A stretch of DNA of 64,000 nucleotides, from contig JBAZKL010000001.1 in NCBI GenBank assembly GCA_041650835.1, positions 765,617 to 829,616 on the forward strand, in the 5' to 3' direction. The position numbers and the translations under genes were made by a program. Source of the DNA: Candidatus Omnitrophota bacterium (lineage in GTDB: Bacteria; Omnitrophota; Gorgyraeia; Gygaellales; Profunditerraquicolaceae). Positions within the stretch are counted from its first letter, which is position 1. Each line of letters starts with the position of its first letter. Shown piece after piece: positions 304 to 63,900 of this stretch. Below the pieces are notes generated by a model. It made no database searches. It was not told the DNA's origin and saw nothing but the letters and a program-made list of their open reading frames with translations.

Positions 304-329
304 ATCGCGGAGATCTTTTCTATTCTGTC

Positions 330-43780: not shown

Positions 43781-43789
43781 ACGCGCCCC

Positions 43790-45840
43790 GGCTGAACCCG
43801 CCATAGCGGATCTTCATATACGCTGCCAGGTTATTAGCCACGCCCCATGCCTGGGCATCACAACCGCGGGGCCAATGGGAATAATTCCCGTCAAGTATTT
43901 CCGAGACGCTCCCCACCCCGGCTACCGACAAATGTTCATCGATCTCTGCGAAATAGGGAAGAACGAAACGGATACTCTCCAATGAATATTCATGCGCGGT
44001 GACATACGCCAGAGCCCAATCCCCGAAGAGGTGCGGCCAGGCTGTCCCGTTATGATACGCCGGCTTTCTTTGAGTATCCTCTTCCCCCTCATAATAACCC
44101 CTATAAGGGAATACAGAATGAGAACAGGTATCCTGCGACAAGGTCCGAAGTGCCGCAGGCACGACTAATTTCTCTTTTACTATTTCAACCACGCTCTTTT
44201 GCTGTTTCCGGGAAAGCAGGTTATACTGCGAAAGAACAGCGATAAGCTGGTTCGGACGGATCGCGGCGTCTTTTTTTGCGCTGGAAACCGCCTGATGAGG
44301 ATATGCTTCCAGGGTATCGGCAAGATATCCTTTTTCGGTGAGCCAGAAATATTCTCTAAAACTGTGACGTATCTTTTTGGCGGCAACCATATAATTTTGG
44401 GCTTGAGCGCTTTCTCCTATTTCTTCAAAAAGCTTTGATATGTATAAAACACTCTCATACCAGCGCGCGTTATTCTCAACGGTATAGCCTTCCCGGGGAG
44501 TACAAGCCGGATAATTCGTATCCATCCAGGTAAAATGACTCGGCGACCAGATCAAAAAGGTTTCCTGGTCCATGCGTATCCCGTTGGGAGTGCCATGGCG
44601 ATACCCCTCAATTATTGATGTCATGATCTCAAGGATGATCCGTTTCCCTGCTGTCTCAAAAAGGATAGCTTTATCTCCTGTTGCCTCGATATAACTTCTC
44701 ACGGAGAGGATATACAAAAGCGGAGCATCCACAGTATCATAATTTTGCGCGGTCTCACCGGCAATGATGTTCGGAAGCATTCCTCTATCTTCAAATTTAC
44801 CGAATGCCATCAACAAACCTTTGGCAATATCGTGCATTCCGGCAGCCAGGATCCCGTCGAAACAAATAAAGGTATCCCTGCCCCAATCAGAGAACCAGGG
44901 GTAGCCGGCAAGCACGGTATAGAACTTATCGCGCTTGGCGACGAACGGCCATAACCCCAGCACCATTTTCTGCACAAACGCGTCTTTACGCGCGGCAGGG
45001 TCTTTAACTTTGCGTATTCTTTCCAATTGAAGAAGGCAATTATCCTCGATCATCGCCTGTGCCTGGGCTTCATTAATATCTTTCTCTTCAGTTAAAAGGT
45101 CTTTGCTGGCAAACACAATATTTGTTGATCCTTGTTCGGTAAGGACAGCCGTGAAGAACCCCGGGCTGTAACTATCGCTGGCATTATCCTGGCCCCGCTC
45201 TCCTTCAATGGGATTAAAACCATAATGCCATTCGGGGCTGAATTGATAGCTCCCCGCGGTAGCCCACATCCTTATCCCATCAAACCCCGGATACCAGTTT
45301 TTCCAATCATCGCTGATCGGCCATATTCCAAAGCCTTTTACGCTTTCGCCGTCTTGTATCGGAAAATGCTTGCCCGACCACCAGGAAACTGCGCCATCCC
45401 AATGCTTGGCTGTTTCATGATGCAGGCGCATCTCTAAATCGGGCCTGATGAAAAGATGGACCTGCTTGATACCCGGCGTCATAGCCGCGACATGGTAATT
45501 AAAAAGGAACCTGTTCGCGCCTTCTTCCAGGACGGCAGTTTTAACGATCACAACCTGCTGGCCGCCCTCAATGGTGAGCACAAATGTCCATTGCGGCAAA
45601 GGATACCGCTGGAAGTGCGCGAACGTATTCATATCGAGATGGAAGGCTTTTTCCTGCCCGTCATAGACGAGCGTTACATCTTCGACGATCCCTCTAAAAA
45701 TAACCCTCCGCGACTCATCCGGAGCCGACAGGATTAAATTTGCCTGAAAGCCGTCATACTTGCTGGTATACCCCTGGGTTTCAATGGCCAGCCCCATCTG
45801 ATGGCGCGCCAGAGGCCGGATAGGCAAGCGTAAAATACTT
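43790..45840 (-). CDS. Glycogen debranching enzyme (bacterial/archaeal GDE N-domain plus amylo-alpha-1,6-glucosidase six-hairpin domain).
   Basis: Reverse translation: GYPWFSDWGRDTFI (44874-44909), AYHNGTAWPHLFG, CDAQAWGVANNLAAYMKI (about 43800-43845). The gene begins just below the upstream TAA at 45849-45851. Confidence 0.55.
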
Positions 45841-45848
45841 CCCCGGCC

Positions 45849-48740
45849 GTTAGAGAGAGTGACCGTATTATGCGGGTAGAGATCAAAAACATCTTTCTTT
45901 AACCGCAGCGACAATTCGCCTTCCTCAACAACCTCACTCCATGCTTCCAACACAGGCATGACTTTCAGGTGATACTCCTGCCGCAAACCATTATCCCCTT
46001 CCCATCCGTTATTTTCCCGTTTACCGATCCATAAAAAGCTGACTGAATATCTTCCCGGCTCAAGCATAGAGATCATAGACAGATATTCCGACAAGTCCCT
46101 GACCGGCAATGAATGCGCGTAGGTCTCTTTACCGCTTTTCTCATGGCGCAGGTAGACCACGAACGGATGCGGGTTCCTGAAAGCCAGAGAACATCCGTAA
46201 TGCACTAATACCTCTTTGTTCTTGTTCTCCTCCCAATCCCACTCAACGGTCTGCTTGCGCGCATCCAGGTCACAGACACTGATCTCTGAAAAAGAGGAAG
46301 CATAAACTTGCCTTTGCTGAACAGGAACATCGCTTTCCTTGGCAATAACACGGATACGATACCAATCCGTATACTTCGGATACTCCTCTCCCTCGGCAAA
46401 TACTCCGGCGCGCAATTTATAGTCACCCGGCTCTAATTCATGGATAATGGTAGAAAGAATAGCTGAACGCTTTCCTTCCCCGTTACGGTAAGAAGAAACA
46501 TGCGGTTTATTCAACCCTGAATTTTCTTCCATAATATCGATATTAAAGGTTTCATCCATCGTGAAATAGACTACCTGCCCTTCCTGCACCACGACTTGCG
46601 TTCCACGGAAGCCTTCCCAATCCCATACTATGCCGCCGGCAGGTATCTCGCTTTTTTCCAGGCGCAATACCGCGACCTGTCCGGGGGCCAGGTCAAATTT
46701 CATGCGCGGCTCTTCATAGAGGTATTCAACGCCGCTTATCAGCTCTTTAAAAAGGAAGCGGTGGGCCAGAGGAATACCCATGTACCAATAGGTGATCGGC
46801 ACATCGAGCGTTTTTTGATCATTACTGAAGTTCGCCGCGATTATAAGGCTGTTATTTTGATAATGCTTAACGAAATAAACCAGATGCTCTTCATTATAGG
46901 GGGTAAGATTGATCATATTGGAATTACCGACCGCGGGATTCTCTTCCCTGATCTTAACAAAGCGCTTAACCCATGATGAGAGGTCAACCGGGCCGCATTC
47001 CTTAGTCCCCCAGTCGGAACAGACAGGCCTGCCGGCAGCATCATGCGTTTCTTGTTTTATATTCGCGAATGTACCGAATTCTCCCAGGCTGACCAACGCG
47101 GTCTCTATCCGGGGGCCTAAAAGGAGCATGCCTAAGAACGCGGGGCCTAATAGCTCAATAATGTATTTCTGTAATTCAACGCTGTCTTCCTGAGTAGAGA
47201 TGCCGGCCAAATATTTAAACATCCCCCAATATTCTTTAGACCAGCGATAGCTGTCGTGGGTATCGACAACCGTATAACCAAATTCCCGTGAAATACCGGC
47301 AACATCATTGATAAAATCCCTCAGGAATTTACCTTTTAAATCAAGGACAAATGAATATTGCAGGAACCCCAGGCTGATCAAACTGAAATAGGCGTGAGGG
47401 TCAGCGCCCAACTGTTCAACAATAGGCAGAATATCATTCTCCTGAAAGTATTGCGCGATCCTCTCCCAGAGATTCGTATGATAATGGACCCGGCCTGAAG
47501 TCCCGCAGCCATATTTATGCAGCGCGTCAAGCCGCCAACCCGAGATACGCGCGGCGTTCCCGTGCGTATAGAAAATGTCGGGAAATATGCGCCCCCAGTA
47601 TTCAAACGGCTCAATTCTGGGGTCTTCTTTACCTTTTAAAACCTGTTCGTGAATACTCAATTCATCCCAGGAAGCAAGATCCCCCCACAGCGGGCTTAAG
47701 ATATTTCCTTTTTTACCCTTTTCAAAATAACCTCTATGGAAAGCGGCATCAACGCCGTCCTGGGCCCGATAGAAAGGAAGATCGCCCAAGATCAAAATAC
47801 CCTTTTCCATACAAGTACTTAATAATCCATAAAACTGTTCAAAACTAATAAACTGTTCGTAAAGAATGGAATTCATGGCGCAGTCGCCTTCCTGGCAATG
47901 CCAAAAATCCTCTAAAGGATACGAAATGCCGCTGATCGATTTACCCGGGTATTGCTGATTGCGCTTCAGGACCAACTCCGCGTATTCCCTGGCCTGCTTG
48001 AGCTGCGCGAATTTCATAAAAGCCGTTTTTCTTCTTTCGCTGCCGGAATTCATAAGGTCATAGAGGCGCTCGCTCAAGAACCCGCCCTTATCTTCAACAC
48101 ACTGCCAGTCGATAAAACAGGGATGCAGCGCGTACACGGAAAGCGGCGCGAACGGGCTTTCTCCGGATGTCGGGAAGAACGGAGAAAGCATAAACACATT
48201 TTTACCGGTCTGTTCAAACCTATCCAGGATAAAATCCCTGATCCCGCTCCAATTGACCGCGAAGCCGCGGCAGGCCACATCCGGTAAAAACACATAGGAG
48301 GGATGAAAAGTTTCCGGTTTGATCCAGGTCGGCATCCGGTAAACCTTAAGCGTAACGTTTGAACCGACCCACTTCGCCTCTTTCTGGTGCTTAGTTTGCG
48401 CAAAACCGGTAAATTCAAAATGACCTGGTTTAGAGACCAAAAGTCTCATCCGGGCGCTAAAAACACCGGGGAGCAGGTTGTTCTCTGAGTCGTAAGATTG
48501 AGCTATGCTCTCCGGAGGAAATTCAATGGAATGCCACACTTGAGAATCGGCATTCGTTTGAATGCCCGCGGTCAAATCTTCGATATTTGCGACAGGCGTG
48601 GTAGTAACCGTTACCTCTATTTCGATCGTATTATTGATACCTATGGCGGGCTGGTCCCAGGGAGCAGGGCTTATTTCAACGCGGGTAACAACAGGCAATT
48701 CGGCTGTTACCGCCGAAGAACTAACCATGCGCGGCGGAGC
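45849..48740 (-). CDS. malQ: 4-alpha-glucanotransferase (GH77 amylomaltase, MalQ-like) with an N-terminal beta-sandwich (CBM-like) domain and C-terminal extra domains.
   Basis: Reverse translation: start MLLRAPPRM at 48738-48740. FHPSYVFLPDVACRGFAVNWSGIRDF...MLSPFFPTSGESPFAPLSVYALHPCFID (48111-48190). FYTHGNAARISGW (47538-47573). Stop ...HNTVTL-TAA at 45849-45851. Confidence 0.55.
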
Positions 48741-48845
48741 GCGCAGAAGCATATTTTCAGCGACCAATTCAGCTGTCGCAGGGAAATCTAATTGCGCCAA
48801 CGGCGCTGACGCGATAAACACGGCCGTTGCGGTGATAAGGTCCCC

Positions 48846-48938
48846 ACCAGCCACGCCCCGTTGGAAAATAACAGTTGCTCCCCACCAGCCACGGAAGGTA
48901 AAGCATAACTGTAATAGTGATATTTTCCAACGGGGCAC
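48846..48938. repeat. 93-nt intergenic repeat element with a 16-bp inverted repeat (copy 1).
   Basis: Exact or near-exact match to 52703-52795. Stem cgccccgttggaaaata ... tattttccaacggggc encloses a loop of about 50 nt. Lies between the SAS-domain gene end and the GH77 start. Confidence 0.7.
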
Positions 48939-48959
48939 GGAAGGTAAACCAAATCGCTT

Positions 48960-51900
48960 GAACCGCAACGGCCGCGATGATTCCTTACTGATACTTGAAC
49001 TGCTTTGCTGCGGCACCGAAGATGCAAGAACCGCATTCAAAGGGCCTTGTTTTTCTTGAGGGATATTTTTCGAAAATATTCTCTGACTCACCGGCGATTT
49101 ATCAGGATTTAGTATTTTAACCCCCGTCCCGGTATCGATTTCCGCCAAGAATATATCCCCGGTTTCGGCCTTCCCTTGAGCAGAGAGGGAAAACAGCCGA
49201 GACGACCTTAAAGCAAAGCTCTGCCCATAAGCAGGGACCACTTTCTTCATGTTCGCGCCGAACAGAACAAATAAACTCCTGACATTCCCCGGTTTATTCT
49301 CAAGTGAGGGGAAAGTCAATTCCAAAGCGCCGGGATACTTACGCGAGCGGTTGACCACCATACAATAGGCGTTATTACCTATTCGCTCGATGATCTCGCC
49401 ATATTGCTCCATGGGGATGCTTTGCCAGGAAGATATCAGGTTATATTTTTGCGGCGGCATGCGCAATAAAACTTCACCGCGCCTCAAGCCCTGCATATGC
49501 CCGGCCACAATTTCAATATCGGCCACATTGTTCTTCGCGTAATGTTTTCCGGCGCTTTCGCGGCTTAATTTATAGACCCAATGCGGACGGTCGAAATTTT
49601 GTTTTGCTTCCCAATCTTCTTTTGAGAAGATCTGGACCTCAGCCGGCACGCCTTCAATATTTATAAATACAACATACTCATTCCACTGGGCCCTGATGCC
49701 GGCGAATTCTTTATTATGATGCTTATATTCGGGATTTTCTTCATTCAGCTCCTGCAAGGGGTAATTATTTAATAAATAGCTCAGGATATGATAGACATCG
49801 TGCTTCGTCCTGCTGACAATAGTGATCCCGAAAACATCCTTTAATCTCCTTAAGTCTTTATTATATTCTTTCTTGGTCATTGCCTTTTTCCAGCAGGTAT
49901 AAGCGTCTTTTACGCGGGAAAACATTGCGTCGGCATAAACGCCGCTTTGAGCTAACCGGTAACGCATTTCAACTGATCTTTCCAACAGATAATCCTGGGC
50001 TTGACCAAAATCCCTGCCTCCCCTGATCTCCCTGACTTCATTAACAACATCAGCATAAATTTCAGTATAAGAAAAAACGACTTCCCTGAATTGCCGGTCT
50101 AATCCTTCGAGCCTTAAGAATTCAGCTAAGGGGGCGTAAATACAATACACTTCATTCGCCCAGGATATCCGCTCCTCGACTGTTTCCAGGTGCCTGCCGG
50201 AAGCGAGTTTATCCGCCAGGACTAAGACTATTCCATGAACACCTGACAGCATTAAGATCATGCAGATATATTTTTCCAGGGCATCATCGCCTTTTACGAC
50301 CCGTAAAGCAGGCAAAGAATTAAAACGCTGCATCAAGAGGACATAATCCTTGATCGTTTTATCGCTCATGAATCTCTTCTTTAATGACTGGCTTAAGGAA
50401 GGGGCTTCTCTTGTGGGATTAATATGCGTCAAGAGCGCGAAAAGCGCTTGAGGCTTAAATGAAACACGGTCTATGAATTCAACATAGATCTCCAGAACAT
50501 CCAGGATATGGGTAAGCACGCCTAACCCGGCTTCAAAATAGGCTGACGCGTAACGAGGCACGCTGATAAGACAATAAACCTCAATTGCCGCTTCGATATC
50601 AGCGGCTGATAAATGCGAATAAGGGATCTTAGAACGCAGATTGATCAGTGAGGCAAAAAACCGGAAGGCAGATCTATCTTGTTCCGCTAAAGGCACTGCC
50701 AGCGCGCCTGAAAGCGATTTATTCTCTATCTCCAAAAATAACAGGATCAGGCGGCTGGTAAGGCTTGCTGATTGTTTTTGTTTACCCAGGTCAAAATAAG
50801 CGGGATGGATAATAATGGTCTTTGAAATAACATCTAAAGCGATACATTTTCCCCCGGTTGATACAAGAGAGGTTGTGATCTCTAATGCCCACACGGGAGG
50901 CGCGCGCAACGAAAGAGGAGCGAACTTATCCAGGCTATCCTTAATAACCTGGTAATGTTTTTCAGAATAGAAACCGGCAGAAAGGCCGATATCAAAACCT
51001 TTCAATTGCCTTTTCAGTAAAATCCTATTCTTCCCGTAAACAGCTTCGGCTTTTGCTTGCGCCTTTTCCGAGACCTTAAGAGGGCTGCCCGAGCCCGGGG
51101 CATTTGCCGCGACTTTATTCCTGCCGCTTTCTTTAGCTTCATAAAGGGCGATATCCGCCCGTTCAATAACATCCTTATGACTGTCATCAATTCTTTGAGG
51201 ATCAAACTCACTTACCCCGATACTGACGCTCACGCTGATCTCCAAGCCATTATTCTTAAACACATATGCTTCTATCATCTGCCGGATCTTTTCCGCCTTC
51301 AGGGCGGCATTCGTTAATTTACATGACAAAGCCAGGCAGAACTCTTCCCCGCCGTAGCGGAACAGCGAATCATTGGTACGGATCGAGTCCTGGATCAAGC
51401 GGGAAACCTCTGCCAGGACAACATCACCCATCGTATGGCCATAGGTATCATTGACTCTCTTAAAGAAATCTATATCAAGCATCAGGATAGAAAGTTCATC
51501 TTTGCCTCTTCTGACGCGGGCGGTCCATTTCGGCAGCTCTTCTTCAAGGTACCTGCGGTTATACGCGCCGGTTAAAGGGTCCCGTATCGCTGATTCCCGC
51601 GCCGCTGCCTTCTCTATCAACGCTTTACCTAACTGCTGCCTTAAATGCCGGCCCATCCAAAGAGAATTAAGGTATTCACTCACCAGGAAGTAGGGAACTA
51701 AACCGACGACAAGAAGATACAAGAAGCCATGCGCCGGGCCGTACGGCAAAGAAATGATCATCGTGAATGCTTCCAGCGCCAGGACATAGATATAGCCGCC
51801 CAAAGTATAAGACAGGAAACTTCCTATCCTGTCGATTACGGCCGCAAGCCAATGCGTAGCCTTATCCGTTAAAGATACCCTGCGTAAGGCCGCGGAAACG

Positions 51901-52300
51901 ATCTTATTGTTTATTTTGTGCAGGATCAATTGGGGCGCCAGGAATGCGATCATAACCCGATACAAGAGGTATTCCTGAGAAGCAGCGATGACCGCCGGAT
52001 GGAGGACAATATTTTGAGCGGCATCCAGGAAACAAACGCTGCCTTCATCAACCGCCTTTCCTTCATTATAAGCCGCGATTTCCTTCTCCAAACTGCGTAC
52101 GGCATATGCTTGCATGGATATAATTGCCGCGAGCAGGAGAGCCGTTACAAAAACAAACGGCAAATTAACAAACTCGAACTTATAGAAGCTGCATAAGGCG
52201 CCCAAACCAACGCAGGCGCATGACCACAACCAAGCATACCGCTTTATCTTGCCTGAAGTAATTATCGCGGAGGGAATTGATCCTCCCTGATCTTCAAGCG
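48960..52300 (-). CDS. Membrane-anchored GGDEF diguanylate cyclase followed, in the same apparent ORF, by a degenerate HD-like region and a RelA/SpoT-type (p)ppGpp synthetase (SAS) domain. May be two adjacent genes.
   Basis: Reverse translation: N-terminal hydrophobic helices; DPLTGAYNRRYLEEEL...MLDIDFFKRVNDTYGHTMGDVVL...RYGGEEF (51344-51364) ...ADIALYEAKESGRNKV; later FGITIVSRTKHDVYHILSYLL and PAEVQIFSKEDWEAKQNFDRPHWVYK (49566-49640; vEvQIRT...HW.YK synthetase signature). Confidence 0.45.
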
Positions 52301-52335
52301 GGCTGCCGGCTAAGACGGGAAGGACCTGATTATTG

Positions 52336-52599: not shown

Positions 52600-52702
52600 C
52601 CGTTACCTCCTTGATTAATATTATGGGCTGCGGAGTAAAGGCCCCCCATTCCTCGACCTGGCTCGGAATCCCTCAAAGAGGAACCCTGAGCTCGTCGAAG
52701 GG

Positions 52703-52795
52703 CCAGCCACGCCCCGTTGGAAAATAACAGTTGCTCCCCACCAGCCACGGAAGGTAAAGCATAACTGTAATAGTGATATTTTCCAACGGGGCACG
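52703..52795. repeat. 93-nt intergenic repeat element with a 16-bp inverted repeat (copy 2).
   Basis: Matches 48846-48938. Lies between the end of GT-B gene A and the start of the small ORF, in an AT-rich spacer at 52600-52900. Confidence 0.7.
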
Positions 52796-55052: not shown

Positions 55053-55099
55053 TCCGCTGTAAAAATTTTTCTCCAAAGGCGAAGCGCAAACTCTTGTTT

Positions 55100-56300
55100 G
55101 CTGGGGCTGCCTGATCGATGCCTGTTCCGGGATAATAAGGCTGCCGTAGGCAATAGCGTCATATTCTTTTAATAAGACCGACGGTGATCTCCCTGCCAGT
55201 AAAATATTTATTTTTTCGTCATACGCGCCTTTTTTATCTAATTCCGCCTTGGTGACAATATCAACAATAATGATCAGCTTATGGTCGCAATTGATCCGGA
55301 AGAATATACGCCAATTATTTGAATCGATACGCGCGTGGTACAGGCCGAAAGAACTATTATCGATCTTTAAAGAGCTCTTCGACCTTTTAGTCCCCAGCTG
55401 CTTTTTAAGCTGTTCGCCTAAGTCATTAAGCAACTGTTCTTGCTTCCACTGCGCGTTACTGCCGTTATTCCTCTTAACGAGGTAAACCTGAAAAGTATTT
55501 TCCGCCGCAGCGAGATCCTCAAGCTTACCCCACGCCTGGAAAACCACCTTAAATATATCGGGTTCAAAGCCGGCGAAACGCTCAACGATGGCGTCTGTAA
55601 TATGTTTTTCAAGAGGATCCAGCCACAGGTGTTGAGCCAGGAGCCTTGCCAGGCGCGTTAAAGGTAATTCTCCGCAAACTGCCGAGAGAAGTTCAACCAT
55701 GTTCTCCTGGTTAGCCATGATATAGGCCAACGCGATCGGCTCCGTCAAATTCGCGGCATAAGCTTTTGCTTGTTTCTTCGAAACGGCTGCCACGGGTTTT
55801 TCCCGCGCAGCTTCCCGGCACACAGCAACTTTCGGCGTTTGAGCAACGCACACATCGGCGGCAGCTTCAGACAAAACCTGAGCCACCGCGGGTAACAAGG
55901 CTTTCTGAGGGGCAGGATTATTAAGAGCATCAAGCTGCCGCTGGTCCCTTTCCATATCGCCATTGATAACAAAGACGTTGCCTTGCAACTGCCTTATCCC
56001 CGCCGTCATGATCTTTTCTTCCGACTGCGCTTGCCGGATATCCTTCATAAGTGAGTCGCGCTGCTTCACCAGATTCTTCCAAAGGCGGTCTTTTATCCTT
56101 ACTTCTTTCTGTTCCGCGGTAGGCCAAAAGAAGCGCAGGGCCTTTTCCCAAACGGATTGCTTTTCAGAATAAACGCGTATCTTTTCCCTTAGATCAGCCG
56201 TCTTTGAACGGATCCTGTCAGCTTCACCGGATTTCGTCCTATGTTCTGCCTTTAAAGAAATAACGTTCGCGCGGAGATCTTCCAATTCTTTATTCCTCAT
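55100..56300 (-). CDS. Coiled-coil-rich segment between GT-B copies B and A. A separate small gene or genes, or the C-terminal tail of B.
   Basis: Non-codon-checked reverse translation is rich in heptad-like E/K/R/L runs (...ELEDLRANVISLKAEHRTKSGEADRIRSKTADLREKIRVYSEKQ...). Confidence 0.2.
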
Positions 56301-58628
56301 GACCAAAACTTCCTCGATCTCATCTCTTTCTTTCTCGAGTTCCCCTATCCGGGTGAGCAGGGCATCTTCATTCACCGCAGATGACGCTCTTTTTGCCTGC
56401 CCGCGCCCATCTTTGACCGGCGACGACGCATGGCAAACACGGTAATCCTGTCCGAATTGCTGGCTCCAGGTATATATCTCCAGGTCAGGATCAACTTCTT
56501 CCATACCCCTGGCATAGGCCCGCGCGGAAAATCCGCAATCACCGGGAAGCAGCTTTACTTTAGTCGTACCGTTTATAGTCCCGAACTCAGTCGCTGCCAG
56601 CTCCATGTTCACCGCGTTCCACGCGGAACCGTCGTATCTTCCGTAATATATCTGCATCACCACTTCATCCACCCCCAGGTCGGCGCCTAAGACTTCCGCG
56701 GAGACTTCATACTCATTTTCCTGCAGGAGTTTAACATCAAGGTTCCTGATATAAGCGATACGCGCTTCGCGCCTGACGTATTCGAACATCCGTTCGTAAT
56801 CCCTGACCATGCGTTCAATGGATACTTTTTGATGAGAGATCACATACGAATCCTTCATCATGCGCAGCCAGCGTTCATCCTGGTTTTCCGTATAGTTATA
56901 ATATAACCGGGAGGCTTCCTGTAAATATTCTCCCAATAAACGCTGCGCGCGGGAGCGGTACAATTCGACGACCGCCTTCTTTTCCGGGTATTTATCCGGC
57001 AACTGCATCAACTGCACGACTTCTTTGAACGAATAGCCTGTTCCCGCGAACACATCCATGAGCCAGCCGTTAATACCATGAATAATGTATTCCAACGGGC
57101 CGCCGGTAGCGGTAGCGATATTAGGCTTACCATTGAACGCGGGCCGGTGATCCGAGGTACCGCAGGCTTCCCGGGTGGAACGCGGCATGCTCACCCAGAC
57201 ATCGCTTGCCTGCGTTGCCCGCTTCATGATCTCATAGCCTGAACCTTCAATAAAAACGAACTTACCGAGAAGTGACTCCTCCTGCATTAATTTCTTGAAT
57301 ATATCGATCATCTCCACGCCGAACTCATCCTGTCCGACACCGCCTACCAGCACATTCATCGCCAACCCCGGGAACTCTCCCCACGGGATAGAATATATTT
57401 TATCCCTGTCTCCGCAGATCCAATTCAGTATTTCATACAATATCCTTTGCTCTTTGTACGCGACGAGCCTGCGGACCAATCCCACGAGCGGCCGGGAAAT
57501 ATCGCTAAAACCATGCCCGGCTATTGCTTTAAGGAACTCATTTAATATTCCTTTATTCTCCTGGCCGATAGTAAAGAGGTCCAGGCCGCTCACCTCTTCT
57601 CCTTTGACGAGAAGCTCTGCTTCTAATTCCTGCAATTTCCTGCTTTTCCATAATTTCGGGTCAGAACCGTTCAATATACCGGTAATTTTCTTGCTGAATT
57701 CAGGCAAAATAACCAGCTTCGTCACTTCCTTATGTTCGTTTGCCACGGCGTTAATGATGGTTGAGCGTTCAGCGATACGCCGAGCCATATCCACCCGTTC
57801 ATCGCGCACGATCCACGCGGGGACCATATCTTCACCGATATGATATTTCAACCACCAGATATTATCGTACGTCGGCAGTGCGGCTGCTTCAGGAGTATGT
57901 GTCGTCAGTACCACTCTGGTGCGGTTATGAGGGCTCTGTAACCCTTTGTTCCTGAACAATTCTATTTCATTGCTGCGCGCGACCTCCAGGAAAAGTAATT
58001 GCGGTTCATTCAGCCGCAGAATATCAGGCATAACCCCTAAGACGCGGAACAATTCAACATACACTTTTCCCATAAAAGCATATTGCTTGACGCGCTCCTG
58101 AGCGTCTTTCGGATACAAGGCCGCGAATATCTGCGGCTGATACGCCAAGAGCACCGGTGTCCCGTCACGCTCCATCATATAAAAAGTCACCGGATAACTC
58201 CTGGAGTTTAATTTCGGCTCTATCATAAGCTGTTCCAGCTTATCGCCCCTGCGTATCATGACGGGCTTAATAATATCGGATTCTTCTTTCCAGTTGATCC
58301 AGAAACGGTTCTCCACCTCCTCAATTTCAATGATATCCTCGCCCTTATCATTCTTCTTTACGACCTGCTTTTTTTCCATTACTTTAAAATTAGCATATAA
58401 CGGCATCAACCCCATAACATCCATACCTACCTGGCCGTAACCGCCGAATGTTTCCCCTGCCAAAAAGCCCAACCCGCCAGAAGCTAACGCGTTCTGCCAT
58501 TGCTGGTTCTTGACCTCGGGTAAAAAGGCTTCCAGGGATACGTCCGCGACAAACTGGCTCTTGGTTACGATCTCCCTTAAGCGGTCATGCGCGATATTCT
58601 GAGCGAGAATAGCGCTCGATGAACGCAT
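56300..58628 (-). CDS. Alpha-glucan phosphorylase-like GT-B glycosyltransferase (copy B), a diverged paralog of A and C.
   Basis: Reverse translation: start MRSSSAILAQNIAHDRLREIVTKSQFVADVSLEAFLPEVKNQQWQNALASGGLGFLAGETFGGYGQVGMDVMGLMPLYANFKV (the aSGGLGfLAGE signature of the alpha-glucan phosphorylase family). C-terminal CBM-like AYARGMEEVDPDLEIYTWSQQFGQDYRV at about 56400. Confidence 0.5.
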
Positions 58629-58673
58629 TGCGACCAGCGCGCCTGTTATTCTATCGGCGATAGCCGACGAGGA

Positions 58674-60815
58674 TACAAAGACGCGGTAATCAGGATTGCT
58701 CCAGACATAGATATCCAGTTCGTTATTGACCGATTTCATTCCCCGCGCGTACGAGCGTACCGTAAACCCTAACTCACCGCGCGGTAATTCCATACGCTTG
58801 CTCACCTTGATAATATTCCCCGCCGCCTGCTCCCCATCCATGCGCTCCGCCTGCCACGGTTTACCGTCGTATGCGCCGTACCATACTTCCGCTTCCACAT
58901 CCGTTGCGCTTAATCCCGCCTTGCATACCACCTGCGCCTTCACCTCGTACTCATTGCCCCCGACGTGCTCCACCGTAACATTCTTCACCGCGGCTATCTT
59001 CGCGTGCTTTCTCACGAATTCAAACACCCGCCCGTAATCCAACGCCATTCGTTTACTCGTCACCTTCTGATGCGCGATCGCGTACGCCTCGCTCATCATC
59101 CCCACCCACCGCTGGTCACGATGCTCCACGTACCCGTAATATAACTGGCTGGCTTCTTTCAAATACTCACCCAACAACTGCTGCGCCCGGCTCCTGAACA
59201 ACTCCACGATCTGCTTCTTCTCCTCATACCACTCAGGCAACTGCATCAACCGCACCTTATCCTCAAACGAATGGTGCGTCCCTTTGAACACGTTCATCAG
59301 CCACCCATTCATCCCGTGCATGATGTATTCCAAAGCCCCGCCCGTTGCCGTCGAGATGACCAAATGCCCGTTCAAACCAGCCTTCTGGTCAGCCACACTG
59401 CAGCCCTCCATCGTCGACCACGGAACCACAACCCACACGTCGCTTGCCTGCACCGCATGCCTCATCACTTCCGTCCCCAACCGTTCCACAAACACAAATC
59501 TACCCCGAAGGTCTTCTCTACCCATCAGTTCCTTCAACTTACCCACCCAGCACTTCCCTATCTCATCACGCGCGATTCCCCCCATCAGCACGTTCATCCC
59601 CAGCCCAAACTTCTTGCCCTGCGCTGTATCATATTCCTTGTCCCTGTCCCCGCACACCCACTCTATTATCTCAAATAAGATCCGCTGCTCCTGGTATGAG
59701 ATCACCCGGCTCACCATCCCCACCAACGGACGGCTGATCTCACTAAAACTCACTCCCGCCGTCTTCTTCAAATACGCCTGCAGGTCTTCTTTCGCTTCCT
59801 GCCCTGCTTTAAAGATCGATTCCCCGCACACCCGCTGCTGCACCCCCCTGGCTTTTGCTTCCAGCTCCAATAACCGCTTATTTTTCCATTCCATTTCATC
59901 TGAGCCGTTCAAAATGCTCACTATCTTATACTTATGGTCCCCTAAAATGATCATCCTGATCACTTCTTTGTTCTCCTCAGACACCGCGGTCACCACGACC
60001 GCCCGTTCTGCCAGCCGCCTCATGAGCGACACTTTTCCGTCCTTGATGATCCAATCCGGCACCATATCCGCACCGATCTTCTCCTTTAACCATCCGATAT
60101 CGTGGTACGTCGGCAGTAACGAAAGATCCGGCATGTGCACCGTCAACACTACCGCCAGATCCTCATAGATACTCTTCTCTCCGCGGCCGCTGAAATATTT
60201 CACGTCGTTCCTACGCGCTACTTCCACGAACAATAACTGCGCGTCGTTCAATCTCACCACGTCAGGTGACACTCCCAGCGCTTTGAACAATTCCACAAAT
60301 ACCCTCCCCATGAACGCCAGCTGGATCGCGCGCTCCGGCTCCTCAGGATACAACTCATTGAAGATCTCAGGCTGGCACGCTAATATCACCGGTGTGCCGC
60401 TGCGTTCCACTACATAAAAACTCACCACGTATTTCCTCTTATTGAACCTTACTTCTATCCGCAGCTGTTCTTCTGTTTCCCCGTTCTTCACCCATAACGG
60501 CTCTAACTCACTCTCCGTATCCCAATGCACCCGCAGCAGGTTCCCGTTGTCACGGTAGTACGCGTATAACGGCATTAACCCCACCGCGGCAACTTGCGCC
60601 TGCGCGTACCCGCTCCAGTTGTCTACCGCCAAATATCCCAGTTTACCCATACCCATCCCCTGCTGGATACGCTCATCTTCTATCTCCTTCAAATACCCTT
60701 CCAAACTTATATCTGCTACGAATTCTCCCCGCCCTATCATCCACCTTAAATTGTCGTCCGCTACTTCTTCCCATCTGCTTAATGGCGATCCGCTTAATAA
60801 TGAAACCGTTTTCAT
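58674..60815 (-). CDS. Alpha-glucan phosphorylase / glycogen synthase-like GT-B glycosyltransferase (copy C), identical to copy A.
   Basis: 58654-60853 is an exact direct repeat of 52891-55090. The identical plus-strand shadow ORFs at 53521/59284, 52963/58726 and 54856/60619 confirm this. Confidence 0.5.
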
Positions 60816-60999
60816 TCCGCTGTAAAAATTTTTCTCCAAAGGCGAAGCGCTTAATATATTTTCAATATAAACGGCGGCTTCTTCAGTTGCCTGGCGGACG
60901 GACAAAACATCCATATCGACGACATAGGCGCCGGTTAAATCAGGCTTCTGATAAACGCTCAAGCTATTATGATCTTCGATATATTGCGGTTTGACCCCT

Positions 61000-63900
61000 A
61001 AATTTTCGCTTTGTTTTTCTATGGAGATATCGCAATAGATTTGAATTATGGTAAATCCTTCTTTTTCAAATTTTGCCACCTCATCGGGCGTCAGAGGATA
61101 GGTCAAAACAAGATTGATCCCGTTGTAGCGTTTATGCGCGTGCTCGGATCTTGCCAGGCTGCTGTAATAATCAAGCGCGGCACCCCATATCTGAGGGCGG
61201 CGGGTCAACATATAAAAAGCCTTCATCCTTACTTTATTTTTCTCGATCATTTTTGTCATGTCCCGCACCAGATATCCGCCTTCTACCTTGGCCGTAGTGC
61301 TGGTAACGACGCCGTCTTTATCGATAAAACATATCGGCTCCTGCGTATAATCTATCCTCTGGACAAGGAAATCTATTAAATGCCGCAGCGCGTATCCTGA
61401 AACAAATTTCGCGAACAGATCCCGGTCCACGGCGTCGCTAAACAAATACTCAGGATCATAACCGGCATTGCCGCAATCATCGACCAATTGATTGGTCCAT
61501 TCCCTGAACATAAAACCGGGATAAATATACCGGGAAACCGCCTTGCCTTCCGCGATCTTTCTTTTTGAAGCGATCGCGCGCGCTATTTCTTTCTTTCCGG
61601 AACCTTTCACCCCGCTATAAACCACGATAGACGGCTTTTCCGAAACCAGCGCGCCGGGAATATCCGCAAGCACCGTATTCACCGGGACAGAAACTATAGC
61701 GGTAGTCCCCTGGTTCAATCCTTTACTATTGAATAAAACATACCCTCCCTTATCCTCAATTTCCTTCTTCATCGAAGAAAGCCCTAAGCCTTCTCCGGGA
61801 ATACCTTCATCGGTATGAAAACGCTCACTCGGCCGAGCGATCTTTCCCAATTGTTCAGGCGTCAACCCCCTGCCGTTGTCGCTGACCCGGTAAACTATCT
61901 CTCCTTCATCCCAGTCGACGCAAACGCGGATGACTATCTCAAGAGGGACCTGAGGATTCCTGTATTTAATAGCGTTGGAAATAAAATTGGTGAGGGCGTT
62001 ATACGCCGGGTCAGGATAAGTAATGAACGCTCGACCAGTAAGGTTGTCGTCAACCAGCACCTTTATAAAAGGTTCCGCCGTTACGACCTGCTGGGATTTT
62101 ATTTCCTCCCGGAAGGACGCGGCGATATTCTCCACGAACTTGCCGACATCGATACAATCTATGGAAATATCAAGATTGCTGAATATGAGGGCCATTAAGC
62201 GTTCCGCGGTATCGGTATTCTTTAAAAGATACTCCAACGGGGACTGCAGCGCCTCATAGGCCGCAGGTATTCCTTTAAGCAGGCGCAGCTGCACCTGGAG
62301 CTTGCGGTTAACAACCCTGAACTCGTCGCTTGCTTCTTCTATCAGCGCATACTGGCCGATCAATTCAGATAATTCAGATAATTCAAAAGGTAAACCGTTC
62401 TTTTCCTTTTCTTTCAAAGCAACTACCTTATTATGGAACAACATTATCTTCGCCCGCAGCGCGTCTGCATGTTGAAAGATCTCCGAAAGGAGCCCGACCT
62501 TAATATCAGCTTCTGCTTTCTTAACCAGCGGGGCATACAAAGAAACAGGCAGATCTACCGCACTTTCATACAAAGCTTTTATTACCGCTTTCTCTTTATA
62601 TCCCGGCTCTAAGCTATCGACCGCAGCGCGCATGCGGAAAGATACCGTTTGATAGAGCGGATAGGGCAGCCCGCTTATGGCCTCATCAAGAAAGGAGTAA
62701 GCGTCTTTTTTATGGATGAACTTCGCGCAGGTGTAAAATACGCCTTGCGCGAAAGCGTCTTTCATGAGCGGATGCTCTTCTTTGCTCATTTTAACGGCCA
62801 GCATCTTTAATCTTCTTTCCAACATGAGGGCGAAGTTACCGTACGCGTAAAGCAAATTCTTAACATGATGCAGCAATCCCGCCTCCACCCTCCTGAGCAA
62901 ATAGTAGCCATGCGCTATATTTTTCTCTACCGGAGACGCCGCCTGGGCTTCAGGACGATACAGCATATTCTTCATAATAGATGCTCTTACGGAAAGCGGC
63001 AGAAGCGCTAAGTTGCCTGATTTACGGATATCGGTCGAGCGGATACCGAAGAGGTAAAGTTCAGAAATCAATGATACTTCGTAAGGGGTTTGCGTGAGAT
63101 CTTTTTGCAGAAGCGCGTAATCTCTATCTAAACGCACAGCGATCTTAAAGGCGACATCATCAAAACGGTGCTGATATTTCCTTAAAAGGTAATCGAAATT
63201 CCTGGCCCATTTAATATAGGTATCGCTGCCGCAGGCGACATAGAACGTTGCCGGCCGGGCCGAAGGATTGGCTTCCAATATCCTGAGCGCGTTTTCCGTC
63301 CCGTAATCATCCGGATACTCTAAGCTCAATAACGAAGTCTTGATCAAGGGATCGAAAATATCCGACATCGCTCGCGCCATTTCATGCCTAAGAGAAGCGT
63401 CTGTCTTTTTGCTTTTCCAAACCACGCCATCCGGGTCGGGGGCGTTTGTCCCGACAGGGGCCATAAATGCCACATACTGTTTCGATGAACCTCTTTCTTT
63501 TTCCGTAACAAAAACCAGGGTATCCAGCAATAAATCGATGTGGTCGAAATGCGCCGGGTCGAAGGTCCCGGGCAAAGCGACCATAACCAGCTCTTTCGAT
63601 GTATCAGCGTCTAAGGATTGTGCTTCTGCTGAAGACATTCTTACCCAGGGCGCTAAAGAAACATCCCCCGCGTAAACGCGCGAAAGGATAGTCCTCAAAT
63701 TATGATTAACCTTAAGCTTTATATCCTCAAGCAGCGAGGCATCACTGTCGCATAAGCCTTTTTCCATAGCGGCTATTTCCCGGTTAAACCTGATGATCAT
63801 ATCAAGCATCATTTCCAGCGAGCGTTCATCGGCGCGCCTGCCGGTAGGGACAAAAGAGCCGTTCTTCCAGATATAATTGGCGCCTCGTTTATTGGTAACC

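What the first reader, a model, noticed from the sequence alone, without database searches (positions are those of the whole stretch)
44000..61000. Alpha-glucan (glycogen) metabolism supercluster on one strand
GH77 amylomaltase, a glycogen debranching enzyme, three tandem alpha-glucan phosphorylase/synthase-like GT-B genes and, further left, iPGM and a PEP-utilising enzyme, are all co-oriented with minimal spacers. This density of storage-glucan enzymes in one co-directional array is unusual. It suggests one regulon devoted to glucan turnover.
Basis: partly seen in the sequence, partly recalled or inferred. Interest (0 to 1): 0.6.

Follow-up and report, generated by a model that had tools for sequence, protein, structure and literature searches.

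The report
Slice of an Omnitrophota giant gene
The "glycogen gene cluster" is not a set of genes: the whole 64-kb window is one stop-free reading frame from a giant Omnitrophota gene, in which glycogen-type enzymes and many unrelated enzymes are fused head to tail and separated by a short recurring peptide motif that may mark where the protein is divided.

Summary
Pfam and NCBIfam confirm three GT-B alpha-glucan synthase/phosphorylase-like units, GH77-like plus GDE_N/GDE_C, a PEP-utilising (PTS enzyme I-like) unit and iPGM. They are not separate genes. The minus strand carries one uninterrupted frame across all 64,000 bases (21,332 codons, no stop, open at both ends). Alpha-glucan units make up only about 18% of it and are interleaved with HATPase, GGDEF, RelA/SpoT, TPR, HD, YcaO, YkuD, HAD, NusG and methyltransferase units. 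The closest relatives are Candidatus Omnitrophota MAGs, two of which also show stop-free frames longer than 7,000 codons. This fits the published Archaeovorin or "multi-enzyme metabolic" class of Omnitrophota giant proteins, so it is a new member of a known kind. I found three things not in the papers I read. First, a peptide delimiter, [AGS][AGS]-S-[P/S]-hydrophobic, occurs 35 times against 1 expected. It lies outside every Pfam-matched stretch, brackets the units, and is enriched in several other Omnitrophota giant fragments but not in controls. Second, a perfect 2,194-nt duplication of one unit runs from delimiter to delimiter. Third, a 97-nt palindromic element sits at two junctions and is read in different frames. 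Whether the delimiter is a cleavage site is untested.

The parts
3..63998 (-). Internal fragment (21,332 codons) of one giant open reading frame, open at both window ends
   Evidence: No stop codons in this frame, against 712-1,255 in each of the other five frames. A uniform coding signature (G1 about 0.34, A2 about 0.32) holds along the whole length. dN/dS is 0.27 against an 80%-identical Omnitrophota fragment.
58650..60854 (-). GT-B alpha-glucan synthase/phosphorylase-like unit A (aa 1049-1783)
   Evidence: Pfam Glyco_transf_5 and Glyco_trans_1_4. NCBIfam hits to alpha-glucan phosphorylase and glgA are below cutoff. The family profile best matches PDB 9l6i, an alpha-glucan family phosphorylase. 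GC3 is 0.70 in the codon window that lies mainly in this unit.
56373..58601 (-). GT-B unit B (aa 1800-2542), about 50% identical paralogue of A
   Evidence: Self-BLAST. Pfam Glycos_transf_1, weak Phosphorylase. Motifs TTHTPE and EACGTSDHR, with Arg at the position of the PLP lysine.
52887..55091 (-). GT-B unit C (aa 2970-3704), a copy of unit A
   Evidence: 2,194 nt at 52894-55087 are 100% identical to 58657-60850. The end points map to aa 1050/1781 and 2971/3702, within 1-5 residues of delimiter motifs.
60837..60848 (-). Delimiter ASPL at the start of unit A. The same motif at 55074-55085 starts unit C.
58662..58673 (-). Delimiter SSSA at the end of unit A. The same motif at 52899-52910 ends unit C.
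58611..58622 (-). Delimiter SSSA at the start of unit B
56415..56426 (-). Delimiter SSPV at the end of unit B
52703..52799 (-). 97-nt palindromic element, copy 2, in the junction after unit C
   Evidence: 99% identical to copy 1. The two copies are translated in different frames of the element.
51678..52172 (-). Cluster of three hydrophobic, transmembrane-like segments (aa 3943-4107)
   Evidence: Kyte-Doolittle 19-residue scan only
51114..51590 (-). GGDEF diguanylate cyclase unit (aa 4137-4295) with an intact GGEEF motif
   Evidence: Pfam 141 bits, TIGR00254 166 bits above cutoff, PDB PleD/WspR, motif. A GSPL delimiter follows 9 aa later.
49566..49919 (-). RelA/SpoT (p)ppGpp synthetase-like unit (aa 4694-4811)
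   Evidence: Pfam RelA_SpoT 33 bits; PDB RelA 5iqr
48847..48943 (-). 97-nt palindromic element, copy 1, just upstream of the GH77-GDE unit
   Evidence: 20-bp stem, -55.7 kcal/mol, z = -5.85. There are only two copies in the window.
48711..48722 (-). Delimiter SSSA at the start of the GH77-GDE unit (aa 5093)
   Evidence: Homology to stand-alone and giant relatives starts here
45717..48722 (-). Clan GH-H (GH77-like) 4-alpha-glucanotransferase-like half (aa 5093-6094)
   Evidence: Pfam Glyco_hydro_77 42 bits, over a short stretch. The invariant WRLDALH / VEQLG / DTHD triad is kept. A low-confidence AF2 model matches GH13 enzymes.
43833..45716 (-). GDE_N plus GDE_C amylo-alpha-1,6-glucosidase half (aa 6095-6722)
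   Evidence: Pfam GDE_C 275.8 bits and GDE_N 55.4 bits. PDB eukaryotic glycogen debranching enzymes.
43737..43748 (-). Delimiter SSPV at the end of the GH77-GDE unit (aa 6751)
   Evidence: In the alignment, the stand-alone ORF of L001 ends about 40 residues after the point aligned to this delimiter
61680..62012 (-). HATPase_c unit 1 (aa 663-773)
   Evidence: Pfam 58 bits; G1/G2 boxes
41355..42008 (-). HATPase_c unit 2 plus TPR (aa 7331-7548), with a conserved GSPV delimiter between them
   Evidence: Pfam. The delimiter is conserved in the 80%-identical relative.
36849..38303 (-). PTS enzyme I-like PEP-utilising unit (aa 8566-9050)
   Evidence: Pfam PEP-utilizers_C 108 bits. PDB EI 2hwg. TIGR01417 127 bits, below cutoff. 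TAH, GTNDL and CGE motifs.
29358..30911 (-). Complete 2,3-bisphosphoglycerate-independent phosphoglycerate mutase unit (aa 11030-11547), bracketed by ASPV and ASPM delimiters and preceded by two hydrophobic segments
   Evidence: TIGR01307 437 bits against a cutoff of 331, model positions 2-499 of 504. GNSEVGH and ADHGN motifs. Delimiters and hydrophobic segments.
25950..26336 (-). HD_4 unit
24006..24908 (-). YcaO unit
   Evidence: Pfam 168 bits
22200..22532 (-). YkuD L,D-transpeptidase unit with an SHGC motif. A hydrophobic lipobox-like segment lies upstream at 22929-22985.
19329..19910 (-). HAD hydrolase unit (DMDQT motif), bracketed by SSSL and ASPI
18237..18497 (-). NusG NGN unit, bracketed by SSPQ (7 aa before) and SSSA (6 aa after)
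16842..17162 (-). Methyltransferase (Methyltransf_25, below cutoff)
7524..7952 (-). HD/HD_4 unit, paralogue of the unit at 25950-26336
2400..2858 (-). Methyltransf_23 unit

Best explanation
The interval is an internal stretch of one giant protein-coding gene, at least 64 kb and 21,332 aa long with both ends outside the window. It belongs to a Candidatus Omnitrophota bacterium and is of the 'Archaeovorin' / 'multi-enzyme metabolic cluster' type.

Shown:
- The minus-strand frame is uninterrupted, has a coding signature throughout, and is under purifying selection.
- It is a head-to-tail concatenation of units that each resemble a whole free-standing enzyme. Examples are iPGM from model residue 2 to 499 of 504, and NusG-NGN, HAD, GGDEF and YcaO from model position 1 or 2.
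- The alpha-glucan part consists of three GT-B units (A, its 50% paralogue B, and C, a perfect copy of A) and one 1,660-aa GH77-like plus GDE unit. That unit exists as a stand-alone gene in other Omnitrophota.
- Units are separated by a short peptide-level delimiter, consensus (K/R)-x-[A/S/G]-[S/A/G]-S-[P/S]-[L/A/V/I].

Inferred:
- The frame is translated as one membrane-associated polypeptide. I saw no enrichment of in-frame SD-start pairs, and hydrophobic segments are scattered along it.
- The units fold and act as independent beads, either tethered or released by cleavage at the delimiters.
- The alpha-glucan units remodel or debranch alpha-1,4/1,6-glucan. They probably act on the extracytoplasmic side, because the free-standing relatives of both unit types begin with signal-peptide-like sequences.
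- Nucleotide-dependent units (GGDEF, RelA/SpoT, EI-like, iPGM) must face the cytoplasm.
For: - One frame: 0 stops in 21,332 codons, log10 P about -360, and uniform codon-position composition.
- Selection: dN/dS 0.27 over 931 gap-free codons against GCA_041661085.1, a Ca. Omnitrophota MAG.
- Taxonomy: the best GDE relatives are three Ca. Omnitrophota MAGs at 54-58% identity. The closest GT-B relatives are partial proteins from Ca. Omnitrophota MAGs that fill their whole contigs.
- Other giants: L002 (7,395 codons) and L087 (7,239 codons) are stop-free over all the DNA held. L002 is partly collinear with the window: GH77-GDE, then HATPase, then the 7512-8171 block.
- Domain content matches the published classes: GT5/GT1, TPR, methyltransferases, glycolytic enzymes, PEP-utilising, HATPase, HAD and HD (against papers; giant ORFs above 20 kb in PMC10066038).
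- Catalytic motifs are intact: GGEEF, GNSEVGH/ADHGN, GTNDL/CGE/TAH, DxDxT, SHGC and the GH77 D-E-D triad.
- Free-standing GH77-GDE genes of 1,673-2,057 aa, with signal-peptide-like N-termini, occur in four Omnitrophota sequences. A free-standing GT-B relative also has one.
- Delimiter enrichment: the strict motif occurs 35 times against 1.0 expected (maximum 4 in 200 shuffles) and the broad motif 51 times against 6.8.
- Delimiter position: none of the 35 falls in the 18% of the ORF matched by Pfam. Position -3, which the pattern did not constrain, is small in 39 of 48 sites. Twelve of 34 domain edges have a delimiter within 35 aa, against 3.0 expected (P = 0.0002).
- Delimiter level: the Ser codons vary, so conservation is at the peptide level.
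- Delimiter specificity: it is enriched 3-8.5-fold in P0104, L087, P0002, P0004, P0006, P0020 and L002. The ratio is 0.95 in 461,000 residues of non-Omnitrophota ORFs and about 1 in ordinary Omnitrophota genes (L001, L089).
Against: - The gene's ends are not in the window, so total length, N-terminal signal, peptidase and SecA-like domains are unknown.
- Neither HEAT, C39/S8 peptidase nor SecA_DEAD domains were found in the window.
- Translation as one chain, membrane topology and any cleavage are all untested. Transmembrane calls rest on a Kyte-Doolittle scan only, and no simple alternating topology puts every unit on its expected side.
- Signal peptides of relatives were judged by eye.
- The GT-B units fall below every NCBIfam cutoff. 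Unit B has Arg where phosphorylases have the PLP lysine, so their activity is uncertain.
- The delimiter is absent from several other long Omnitrophota proteins (P0127, P0054 and others).
- A generic test on BLAST block edges was not significant: 7 of 27 edges against 13% expected.
- The perfect 2.2-kb repeat could be an assembly artefact.
Confidence: 0.85

Rival explanations
1. This is a conventional glycogen (glg-type) operon or supercluster of separate, co-oriented genes with very short spacers, forming one glucan-turnover regulon.
For: The family assignments are correct, and all units are on one strand.
Against: There is no stop codon between any two units, or anywhere in 64 kb. Signalling, glycolytic and other units are interleaved. 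No Pfam family typical of GlgC or GlgB was reported. Where gene calls were available (L089), the stand-alone GH77-GDE gene of a relative has no glycogen-gene neighbours.
Confidence: 0.01
2. The long frame is an artefact: a mis-assembly or chimaera, a decayed pseudogene array, or a non-standard genetic code hiding real stops.
For: The perfect 2,194-nt repeat is the kind of feature assemblers can create. The source is probably a metagenome.
Against: A decayed or non-coding sequence would accumulate stops, with about 800 expected. The coding signature is uniform and dN/dS is 0.27. All three standard stops are absent, so no reassignment of a single stop codon is needed to explain the frame. Independent assemblies (L002, L087 and partial NCBI proteins that fill their contigs) show the same phenomenon, as do the published long-read genomes.
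Confidence: 0.03
3. The frame is real, but the units are made as separate proteins, either by internal translation initiation or by cleavage of the mRNA. It would then be a stop-less operon rather than a giant protein.
For: Units look like complete free-standing enzymes. Some are preceded by hydrophobic, signal-like segments, for example before YkuD and before iPGM. One good SD+ATG lies at aa 10732, upstream of the iPGM unit. Stable hairpin elements sit at two junctions.
Against: In-frame start codons with an SD motif are no more frequent than out-of-frame ones: 78 of 1,429 against 78 of 1,448. Without stops, upstream ribosomes would read through anyway. No Rfam family matches. PMC10066038 reports no catalytic RNA in giant ORFs, and reports that peptides map to the V. 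archaeovorus giant ORF.
Confidence: 0.1
4. The delimiter is only a linker composition bias (Ser/Ala/Gly/Pro-rich spacers) with no recognition function, and the protein works as one uncleaved scaffold.
For: Small residues and Pro are mildly enriched 6-9 residues upstream of the motif. The motif also occurs in the 2,057-aa protein of L003. No protease domain was found in the window.
Against: Enrichment is sharply confined to five positions with a fixed order, and the S-[P/S]-hydrophobic order is near-invariant. There is 35-fold enrichment of one pentapeptide class. The same motif is enriched in Omnitrophota giant fragments that the representative search returned as separate clusters at 50% identity.
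Confidence: 0.45

Closest known systems
Archaeovorin-type giant proteins of Omnitrophota (type: the 39,678-aa protein of Velamenicoccus archaeovorus LiM; West-Roberts et al. 2023, bioRxiv 10.1101/2023.11.21.568195; Seymour et al. 2023, PMC10066038)
   Same: A single ORF far above 20 kb. Relatives are in Omnitrophota. GT5 'glycogen-synthase-like' and GT1 domains, TPR, methyltransferases, a glycosyl hydrolase, a glycolytic enzyme domain and a PEP-utilising domain are present, along with scattered hydrophobic segments.
   Different: HEAT repeats, C39/S8 peptidase and SecA_DEAD domains were not found in this fragment, and NUDIX only weakly. The gene ends are missing. The papers state that cleavage points are unknown. 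The delimiter motif seen here is not mentioned in them.
'Multi-enzyme metabolic cluster' class of long Omnitrophota proteins (Nielsen & Lui 2026, bioRxiv 10.64898/2026.06.07.730766)
   Same: Many distinct Pfams tile the chain with none dominating. Both reported co-occurrence modules are present: sugar metabolism (PF08323, PF00534) and regulatory (PF02518, methyltransferase, HAD, HD).
   Different: GDE/GH77, iPGM, YcaO, YkuD and NusG are not mentioned in the passages read, and 'glycogen' and 'debranching' do not occur in that paper. That paper finds that strict nucleotide tandems are rare, whereas here a 2.2-kb unit is duplicated at 100% identity.
Bacterial glgBXCAP / malQ-glgP glycogen operons
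   Same: Enzyme families act on alpha-1,4/1,6-glucan and are encoded side by side.
   Different: Here there are no separate cistrons. No Pfam family typical of GlgC or GlgB was reported. The GT-B units fall below the GlgA and GlgP family cutoffs. Unrelated enzymes are interleaved.
Eukaryotic-type bifunctional glycogen debranching enzyme (4-alpha-glucanotransferase plus amylo-1,6-glucosidase; PDB 5d06, 8zeq)
   Same: The 1,660-aa unit joins a clan GH-H transferase-like half to a GDE_C glucosidase half on one chain.
   Different: The N-terminal half matches GH77 motifs rather than the eukaryotic GH13-type. Similarity to the solved enzymes is confined to about 90 residues. Free-standing Omnitrophota versions carry signal-peptide-like N-termini.
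Viral polyproteins and megasynthase-style 'beads on a string' (analogy, from general knowledge)
   Same: Many complete functional units sit in one frame and are separated by a short recurring peptide motif.
   Different: No protease was identified and no cleavage shown. The units are metabolic and signalling enzymes without an evident shared pathway.
In-frame palindromic repeats such as Rickettsia palindromic elements (recalled from memory, not tested)
   Same: A roughly 100-nt hairpin-forming repeat is inserted inside a coding frame without breaking it, and is read in different frames in the two copies.
   Different: Only two copies were seen, and there is no evidence of mobility or of copies elsewhere.

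Membership tests
Omnitrophota giant ORF (Seymour 2023: ORF >20 kb in an Omnitrophota genome) | Single ORF longer than 20 kb | tested here: met
   At least 63,996 nt without a stop
Omnitrophota giant ORF | Genome belongs to phylum Omnitrophota | tested here: inconclusive
   Only homology is available. The best relatives of three different parts are Ca. Omnitrophota MAGs, at 54-58% and 80% identity. There is no marker gene in the window.
Omnitrophota giant ORF | Multiple transmembrane helices | tested here: inconclusive
   About 11 plausible hydrophobic segments by Kyte-Doolittle. No dedicated predictor was available.
Archaeovorin (West-Roberts 2023) | Glycosyl transferases (GT5, GT1), methyltransferases and glycosyl hydrolases on the chain | tested here: met
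Archaeovorin | Peptidase (C39/S8) and NUDIX domains | tested here: inconclusive
   No peptidase in the window. NUDIX is only 17.9 bits, below cutoff. The gene is incomplete, so absence cannot be concluded.
Archaeovorin | Divergent SecA_DEAD domain; HEAT repeats | tested here: inconclusive
   Not found in the 21,332 aa held. They may lie outside the window.
Multi-enzyme metabolic cluster class (Nielsen & Lui 2026) | Many distinct Pfams, none dominating by copy number | tested here: met
   About 25 distinct Pfam families, with a maximum of 3 copies (the GT-B unit)
Classical glg operon | Separate cistrons for GlgC, GlgA, GlgB, GlgX and GlgP | tested here: not met
   No stops. No Pfam family typical of GlgC or GlgB was reported.
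GH77 4-alpha-glucanotransferase | Family HMM above threshold over the catalytic domain | tested here: inconclusive
   Pfam gives 42.4 bits against a cutoff of 25, but only about 57 residues are aligned. All NCBIfam MalQ models are far below cutoff.
GH77 4-alpha-glucanotransferase | Asp-Glu-Asp catalytic triad in regions II-IV | tested here: met
   WRLDALH, VEQLG and DTHD are invariant in 7 sequences, including the window. The assignment of these motifs to the triad rests on my knowledge of clan GH-H.
GDE (amylo-alpha-1,6-glucosidase, GDE_C/GDE_N) | Pfam GDE_C and GDE_N above gathering score | tested here: met
   275.8 and 55.4 bits. TIGR01561 gives 200 bits, below its cutoff of 364.
Glycogen synthase GlgA (GT5) | Family model above cutoff | tested here: not met
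   Pfam GT5 passes (76 bits) but TIGR02095 gives 26-34 bits against a cutoff of 328
Alpha-glucan phosphorylase (GT35) | PLP-binding lysine in the EASGTSxxK motif | tested here: not met
   The family consensus and unit B have Arg (EACGTSDHR). Units A and C have Lys, but in a degenerate motif (MEGCSVADQK). TIGR02094 gives 63-109 bits against a cutoff of 192.
iPGM (2,3-bisphosphoglycerate-independent phosphoglycerate mutase) | Equivalog model above cutoff; catalytic Ser motif | tested here: met
   TIGR01307 gives 437 bits against a cutoff of 331, covering model positions 2-499 of 504. GNSEVGH and ADHGN motifs.
PTS enzyme I (PtsI) | Model above cutoff; phospho-His and Cys motifs | tested here: inconclusive
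   TIGR01417 gives 127 bits against a cutoff of 342. TAH, GTNDL and CGE motifs are present.

The most novel reading that the evidence does not exclude
The pentapeptide [A/S/G]-[S/A/G]-S-[P/S]-[L/A/V/I] is a functional punctuation signal of a lineage of Omnitrophota giant proteins. It could be a proteolytic processing site or a co-translational segmentation signal. It would divide a chain of more than 21,000 aa into about 40 or more independently acting enzymes. Units would then be duplicated or exchanged as delimiter-to-delimiter cassettes, as in the perfect 2.2-kb copy here. If so, this would supply the 'cleavage points' that the giant-gene literature says are missing, and it would give a rule for parsing these proteins.
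Probability: 0.3. Interest if true: 0.8.

Novelty: new member of a known kind. Interest (0 to 1): 0.6.

Why it matters
Giant genes of Omnitrophota are among the longest coding sequences known, and how they function is unresolved. It is not known whether the product is one chain or many, or which side of the membrane the units face. This window shows concretely that what looks like an operon of glycogen enzymes can be a single frame, which is a trap for annotation by eye and for gene callers on fragmented MAGs. It also offers three testable handles. One is a recurring peptide delimiter that brackets the enzyme units. The second is a cassette-like perfect duplication bounded by that delimiter. 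The third is that free-standing versions of the alpha-glucan units carry export-signal-like N-termini, which points to action on external (host or prey) alpha-glucan rather than on the cell's own storage glycogen.

Tried and rejected
- Tandem rRNA operons, suggested by the 5,763-nt periodicity of plus-strand ORFs: rejected. Rfam and ARAGORN found nothing. The period is the A/C unit duplication, and the plus-strand ORFs are antisense to the GC3-rich units.
- Alternative genetic code: not needed, since all three stops are absent from the frame.
- Internal initiation: in-frame SD+start pairs are not enriched.
- GT-B to GGDEF adjacency in L081 as evidence of an ancestral operon: rejected. L081 has 67% GC, and its GGDEF protein gave no BLAST match to the window.
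- AlphaFold of aa 14680-15280 without an alignment, to see whether delimiters lie in linkers: failed, with pLDDT 33.
- AlphaFold of the GH77-like half with 7 sequences: pLDDT 58. Foldseek hits to GH13 enzymes have E about 1e-14 but TM of only 0.15-0.24, so this is weak support.
- Generic test of BLAST block edges against delimiters: noisy and not significant. I replaced it with the Pfam-edge test.
- Word-indexed homologue searches gave only 1, 1 and 6 hits. The metagenome scan gave 4 loci, so the comparison set for the delimiter is small.
- Search for the palindrome in the 88 loci held at that point: no match.
- Relaxed Pfam scan of the unannotated stretches: only weak hints (CTP_transf_like, NUDIX, ACT, a third HD). 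About 80% of the chain remains unannotated.

Full report
**What is in the sequence**

Listing ORFs in 38-64 kb gave nothing longer than 294 aa. There were no tRNAs and no Rfam matches. Counting stop codons per frame resolved this. The frame on the minus strand that starts at window position 63998 has no TAA, TAG or TGA in 21,332 codons. The other five frames each have 712-1,255. The ORF tool does not list frames that run off both ends of the source, which is why it showed nothing.

With the observed position-specific base composition, about 3.8% of codons should be stops. The log10 probability of none is therefore about -360. First-position G (about 0.34) and second-position A (about 0.32) are steady along the whole frame. 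Over 931 gap-free codons shared with an 80%-identical fragment from a Candidatus Omnitrophota MAG (GCA_041661085.1), dN/dS is 0.27. The window is therefore an internal piece of one real coding sequence of at least 64 kb.

Pfam on the translated frame confirms every family named:
- Glyco_transf_5/Glycos_transf_1-type GT-B units at aa 1049-1783, 1800-2542 and 2970-3704.
- Glyco_hydro_77 (short match), GDE_N and GDE_C (275.8 bits) at aa 5093-6722.
- PEP-utilizers_C at aa 8750-9039.
- Metalloenzyme/iPGM_N at aa 11030-11541.

NCBIfam refines these calls. The iPGM unit passes the equivalog cutoff and covers the model from residue 2 to 499 of 504. The PEP-utilising unit is closest to PTS enzyme I (also PDB 2hwg). 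The GT-B units and the MalQ/GDE parts fall below all curated cutoffs.

There are no gene boundaries or spacers. The interval also contains a transmembrane-like cluster plus an intact GGDEF cyclase and a RelA/SpoT unit, with a further HATPase unit just beyond its right edge. Beyond the interval, the same frame carries another HATPase plus TPR, HD, YcaO, a P-loop kinase-like stretch, YkuD, HAD, NusG-NGN and two methyltransferases. Alpha-glucan units are 18% of the frame. About 80% has no Pfam match at all.

**Where it comes from and what kind of thing it is**

The GDE part finds its best relatives (54-58% identity) in three Candidatus Omnitrophota MAGs. One of them, L002 on a 118.5-kb contig, is also stop-free over all 22 kb held. 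It is partly collinear with the window: GH77-GDE, then HATPase, then the 7512-8171 block.

An exhaustive profile search with GT-B unit A found only 299 relatives among 1.84 billion representative proteins. Most are embedded inside long proteins. The seven looked up carry NCBI names, and six are partial Ca. Omnitrophota proteins; all fill, or nearly fill, the longest contig they were seen on. A metagenome scan added L087, which is 7,239 stop-free codons on a 152-kb contig.

This matches the literature:
- Giant ORFs above 20 kb are common in Omnitrophota (PMC10066038).
- West-Roberts et al. define 'Archaeovorins', in which GT5 glycogen-synthase-like and GT1 domains are the second most common domains. 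TPR, glycolytic-enzyme and pyruvate/PEP dikinase domains also occur.
- Nielsen & Lui describe a 'multi-enzyme metabolic cluster' class. Its two main Pfam modules are starch synthase/GT1, and HATPase/methyltransferase/HAD/HD. Both are present here.

The finding is therefore a new member of a known kind.

**The alpha-glucan units in detail**

Units A and C are identical at the nucleotide level over 2,194 nt (52894-55087 and 58657-60850). Unit B is a paralogue at about 50% identity. The codon window lying mainly in unit A has GC3 of 0.70 against about 0.54 elsewhere.

A profile of this GT-B family matches solved alpha-glucan phosphorylases best (9l6i). It keeps the GGLG and TTHTP motifs. However, the consensus and unit B carry Arg where phosphorylases have the PLP lysine, so canonical phosphorylase chemistry is doubtful.

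The 1,660-aa GH77-GDE unit keeps the WRLDALH / VEQLG / DTHD motifs, which are invariant in seven sequences. A low-confidence model of its N-terminal half resembles GH13 enzymes such as GlgE and neopullulanase.

This unit exists as a free-standing gene of 1,673-2,057 aa in four Omnitrophota sequences. Each of these has an N-terminal hydrophobic, signal-peptide-like sequence. Where called genes were available (L089), its neighbours are not glycogen genes; they include PilZ, a DEAD helicase and AsmA/TamB. A free-standing relative of the GT-B unit (P0007) also begins with such a sequence. From this I infer, but have not shown, that the glucan units act outside the cytoplasm. In contrast, GGDEF, RelA/SpoT, EI-like and iPGM units need cytoplasmic substrates. 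Hydrophobic segments lie between these groups. My crude scan does not yield a topology that satisfies all units.

**A recurring delimiter**

SSP is the most over-represented tripeptide in the frame, at 20 against 3.4 expected. It sits in a fixed context. The pattern [AGS][AGS]SP[VLIAMF] occurs 35 times against 1.0 expected, with a maximum of 4 in 200 shuffles. With the SSS-hydrophobic variant included, the count is 51 against 6.8.

Several observations argue that the motif is specific and works at the peptide level:
- The serine codons used are a mix of TCN and AGY, so conservation is at the peptide level.
- Position -3, which the pattern did not constrain, is Ala, Ser or Gly in 39 of 48 sites.
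- None of the 35 strict sites falls within the Pfam-matched 18% of the chain.
- Twelve of 34 Pfam/NCBIfam domain edges have a delimiter within 35 residues outward, against 3.0 expected under circular shifts (P = 0.0002).

Examples of bracketing:
- NGN is bracketed 7 aa before and 6 aa after.
- HAD is bracketed 5 aa before and 32 aa after.
- iPGM is bracketed 24 aa before and 21 aa after.
- GGDEF is followed 9 aa later.
- The GH77-GDE unit runs from SSSA at aa 5093, exactly where homology to relatives begins, to SSPV at aa 6751.
- Units A, B and C each run from one delimiter to the next, and the end points of the perfect duplication fall within 1-5 residues of delimiters.

The motif is also the top tripeptide signal in four other Omnitrophota giant fragments (P0104, P0002, P0004, P0006). 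The broad pattern is enriched 3-8.5-fold in seven giants or fragments. It is at expectation in 461,000 residues of ORFs from other phyla (ratio 0.95) and in ordinary Omnitrophota genes (L001, L089). Several other long proteins lack it, so it is lineage-restricted. One non-canonical SSP (aa 7717) is not conserved in the 80% relative, whereas the canonical GSPV at aa 7463 is.

Neither preprint mentions such a motif. West-Roberts et al. state that the lack of information on cleavage points blocked their structure predictions. I could not test whether the motif is a cleavage site, a pause signal or just a preferred linker.

**How it most likely works**

Shown: one frame; enzyme-like units with intact catalytic motifs (GGEEF, GNSEVGH, GTNDL/CGE, DxDxT, SHGC, and the GH77 triad); a peptide delimiter between the units; and modular shuffling and duplication between giants.

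Inferred: ribosomes translate the frame as one chain. In-frame SD+start pairs are not enriched, and with no stops, read-through is unavoidable. The units fold independently. They act either tethered to the membrane or after release at the delimiters. The glucan block debranches and remodels alpha-glucan, perhaps from a host or prey, next to signalling and glycolytic units.

The main rivals are internal initiation, a pure composition bias in the linkers, and assembly artefact. They are weighed in the structured fields.

**Verdict**

The object is an ordinary-for-Omnitrophota but still remarkable giant gene. The delimiter motif, the cassette-like duplication and the in-frame palindromic element are the points worth following up.

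Noticed in passing
window 48847-48943 and 52703-52799 (minus strand): Two 99%-identical copies of a 97-nt palindromic element (terminal inverted repeats GCCCCGTTGGAAAATA...TATTTTCCAACGGGGC). It has a 20-bp stem, folds at -55.7 kcal/mol and has z = -5.85. Both copies sit in unit junctions inside the giant frame and are translated in different frames of the element, so it is a nucleotide-level element, MITE- or REP-like. No further copy was found in the window or in the 88 loci held at that point.
   Followed up: partly
window 52894-55087 and 58657-60850: A perfect 2,194-nt direct repeat, 5,763 nt apart, duplicates one GT-B unit from delimiter to delimiter. The codon window lying mainly in unit A has GC3 of 0.70 against about 0.54 elsewhere, and the region shows the strongest GC skew in the window. 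It could be a recent duplication or gene conversion, a foreign origin, or an assembly artefact. I did not resolve which.
   Followed up: partly
window 53521-54405 and 59284-60168 (plus strand), and the other plus-strand ORFs: The longest ORFs reported by the ORF lister lie antisense to the giant frame. The 294-aa pair lies inside the GC3-rich duplicated units. I read them as by-products of the duplicated, GC3-rich coding sequence, not as genes.
   Followed up: yes
L001 6745-12061; L003 6316-12487; P0152; P0153 (L089 10001-15046): Free-standing Omnitrophota versions of the GH77-GDE unit all begin with a hydrophobic, signal-peptide-like N-terminus. L003 also ends in a hydrophobic C-terminal tail and carries SSP-type delimiters before, inside and after the conserved unit. 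This suggests an exported debranching enzyme.
   Followed up: partly
window 22929-22985 (aa 13672-13690): A hydrophobic segment ends in a lipobox-like LNAC, about 130 aa upstream of the YkuD L,D-transpeptidase unit, with no Met nearby. It looks like a vestigial or internal lipoprotein signal inside the giant chain.
   Followed up: no
window 31803-31805 (aa 10732): One of the few good in-frame SD+ATG pairs (GGAGGGAAGGAGTG-ATG) lies about 190 aa upstream of two hydrophobic segments and the complete iPGM unit. It is a possible relic or internal start.
   Followed up: no
aa 12367-12705 vs 18494-18827; 14030-14270 vs 19354-19600; 4307-4419 vs 20149-20263: Three further pairs of diverged internal paralogues (28-53% identity) are scattered along the chain. 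In the first pair both copies start about 40 aa after an SSP delimiter, and in the third pair 3 aa and 17 aa after one; in the second pair only the first copy has a delimiter nearby (79 aa upstream).
   Followed up: partly
L087 (Ga0209201_1000074, 152-kb contig) and L002 (JAQUOV010000008.1, 118.5-kb contig): Two other loci are stop-free over all the DNA held (7,239 and 7,395 codons). They use mainly the SSS-hydrophobic variant of the delimiter.
   Followed up: partly
window 7953-16841 (aa 15720-18682): Nearly 3,000 consecutive residues have no Pfam match even at E = 0.05, yet show the same coding signature and contain several delimiters.
   Followed up: no
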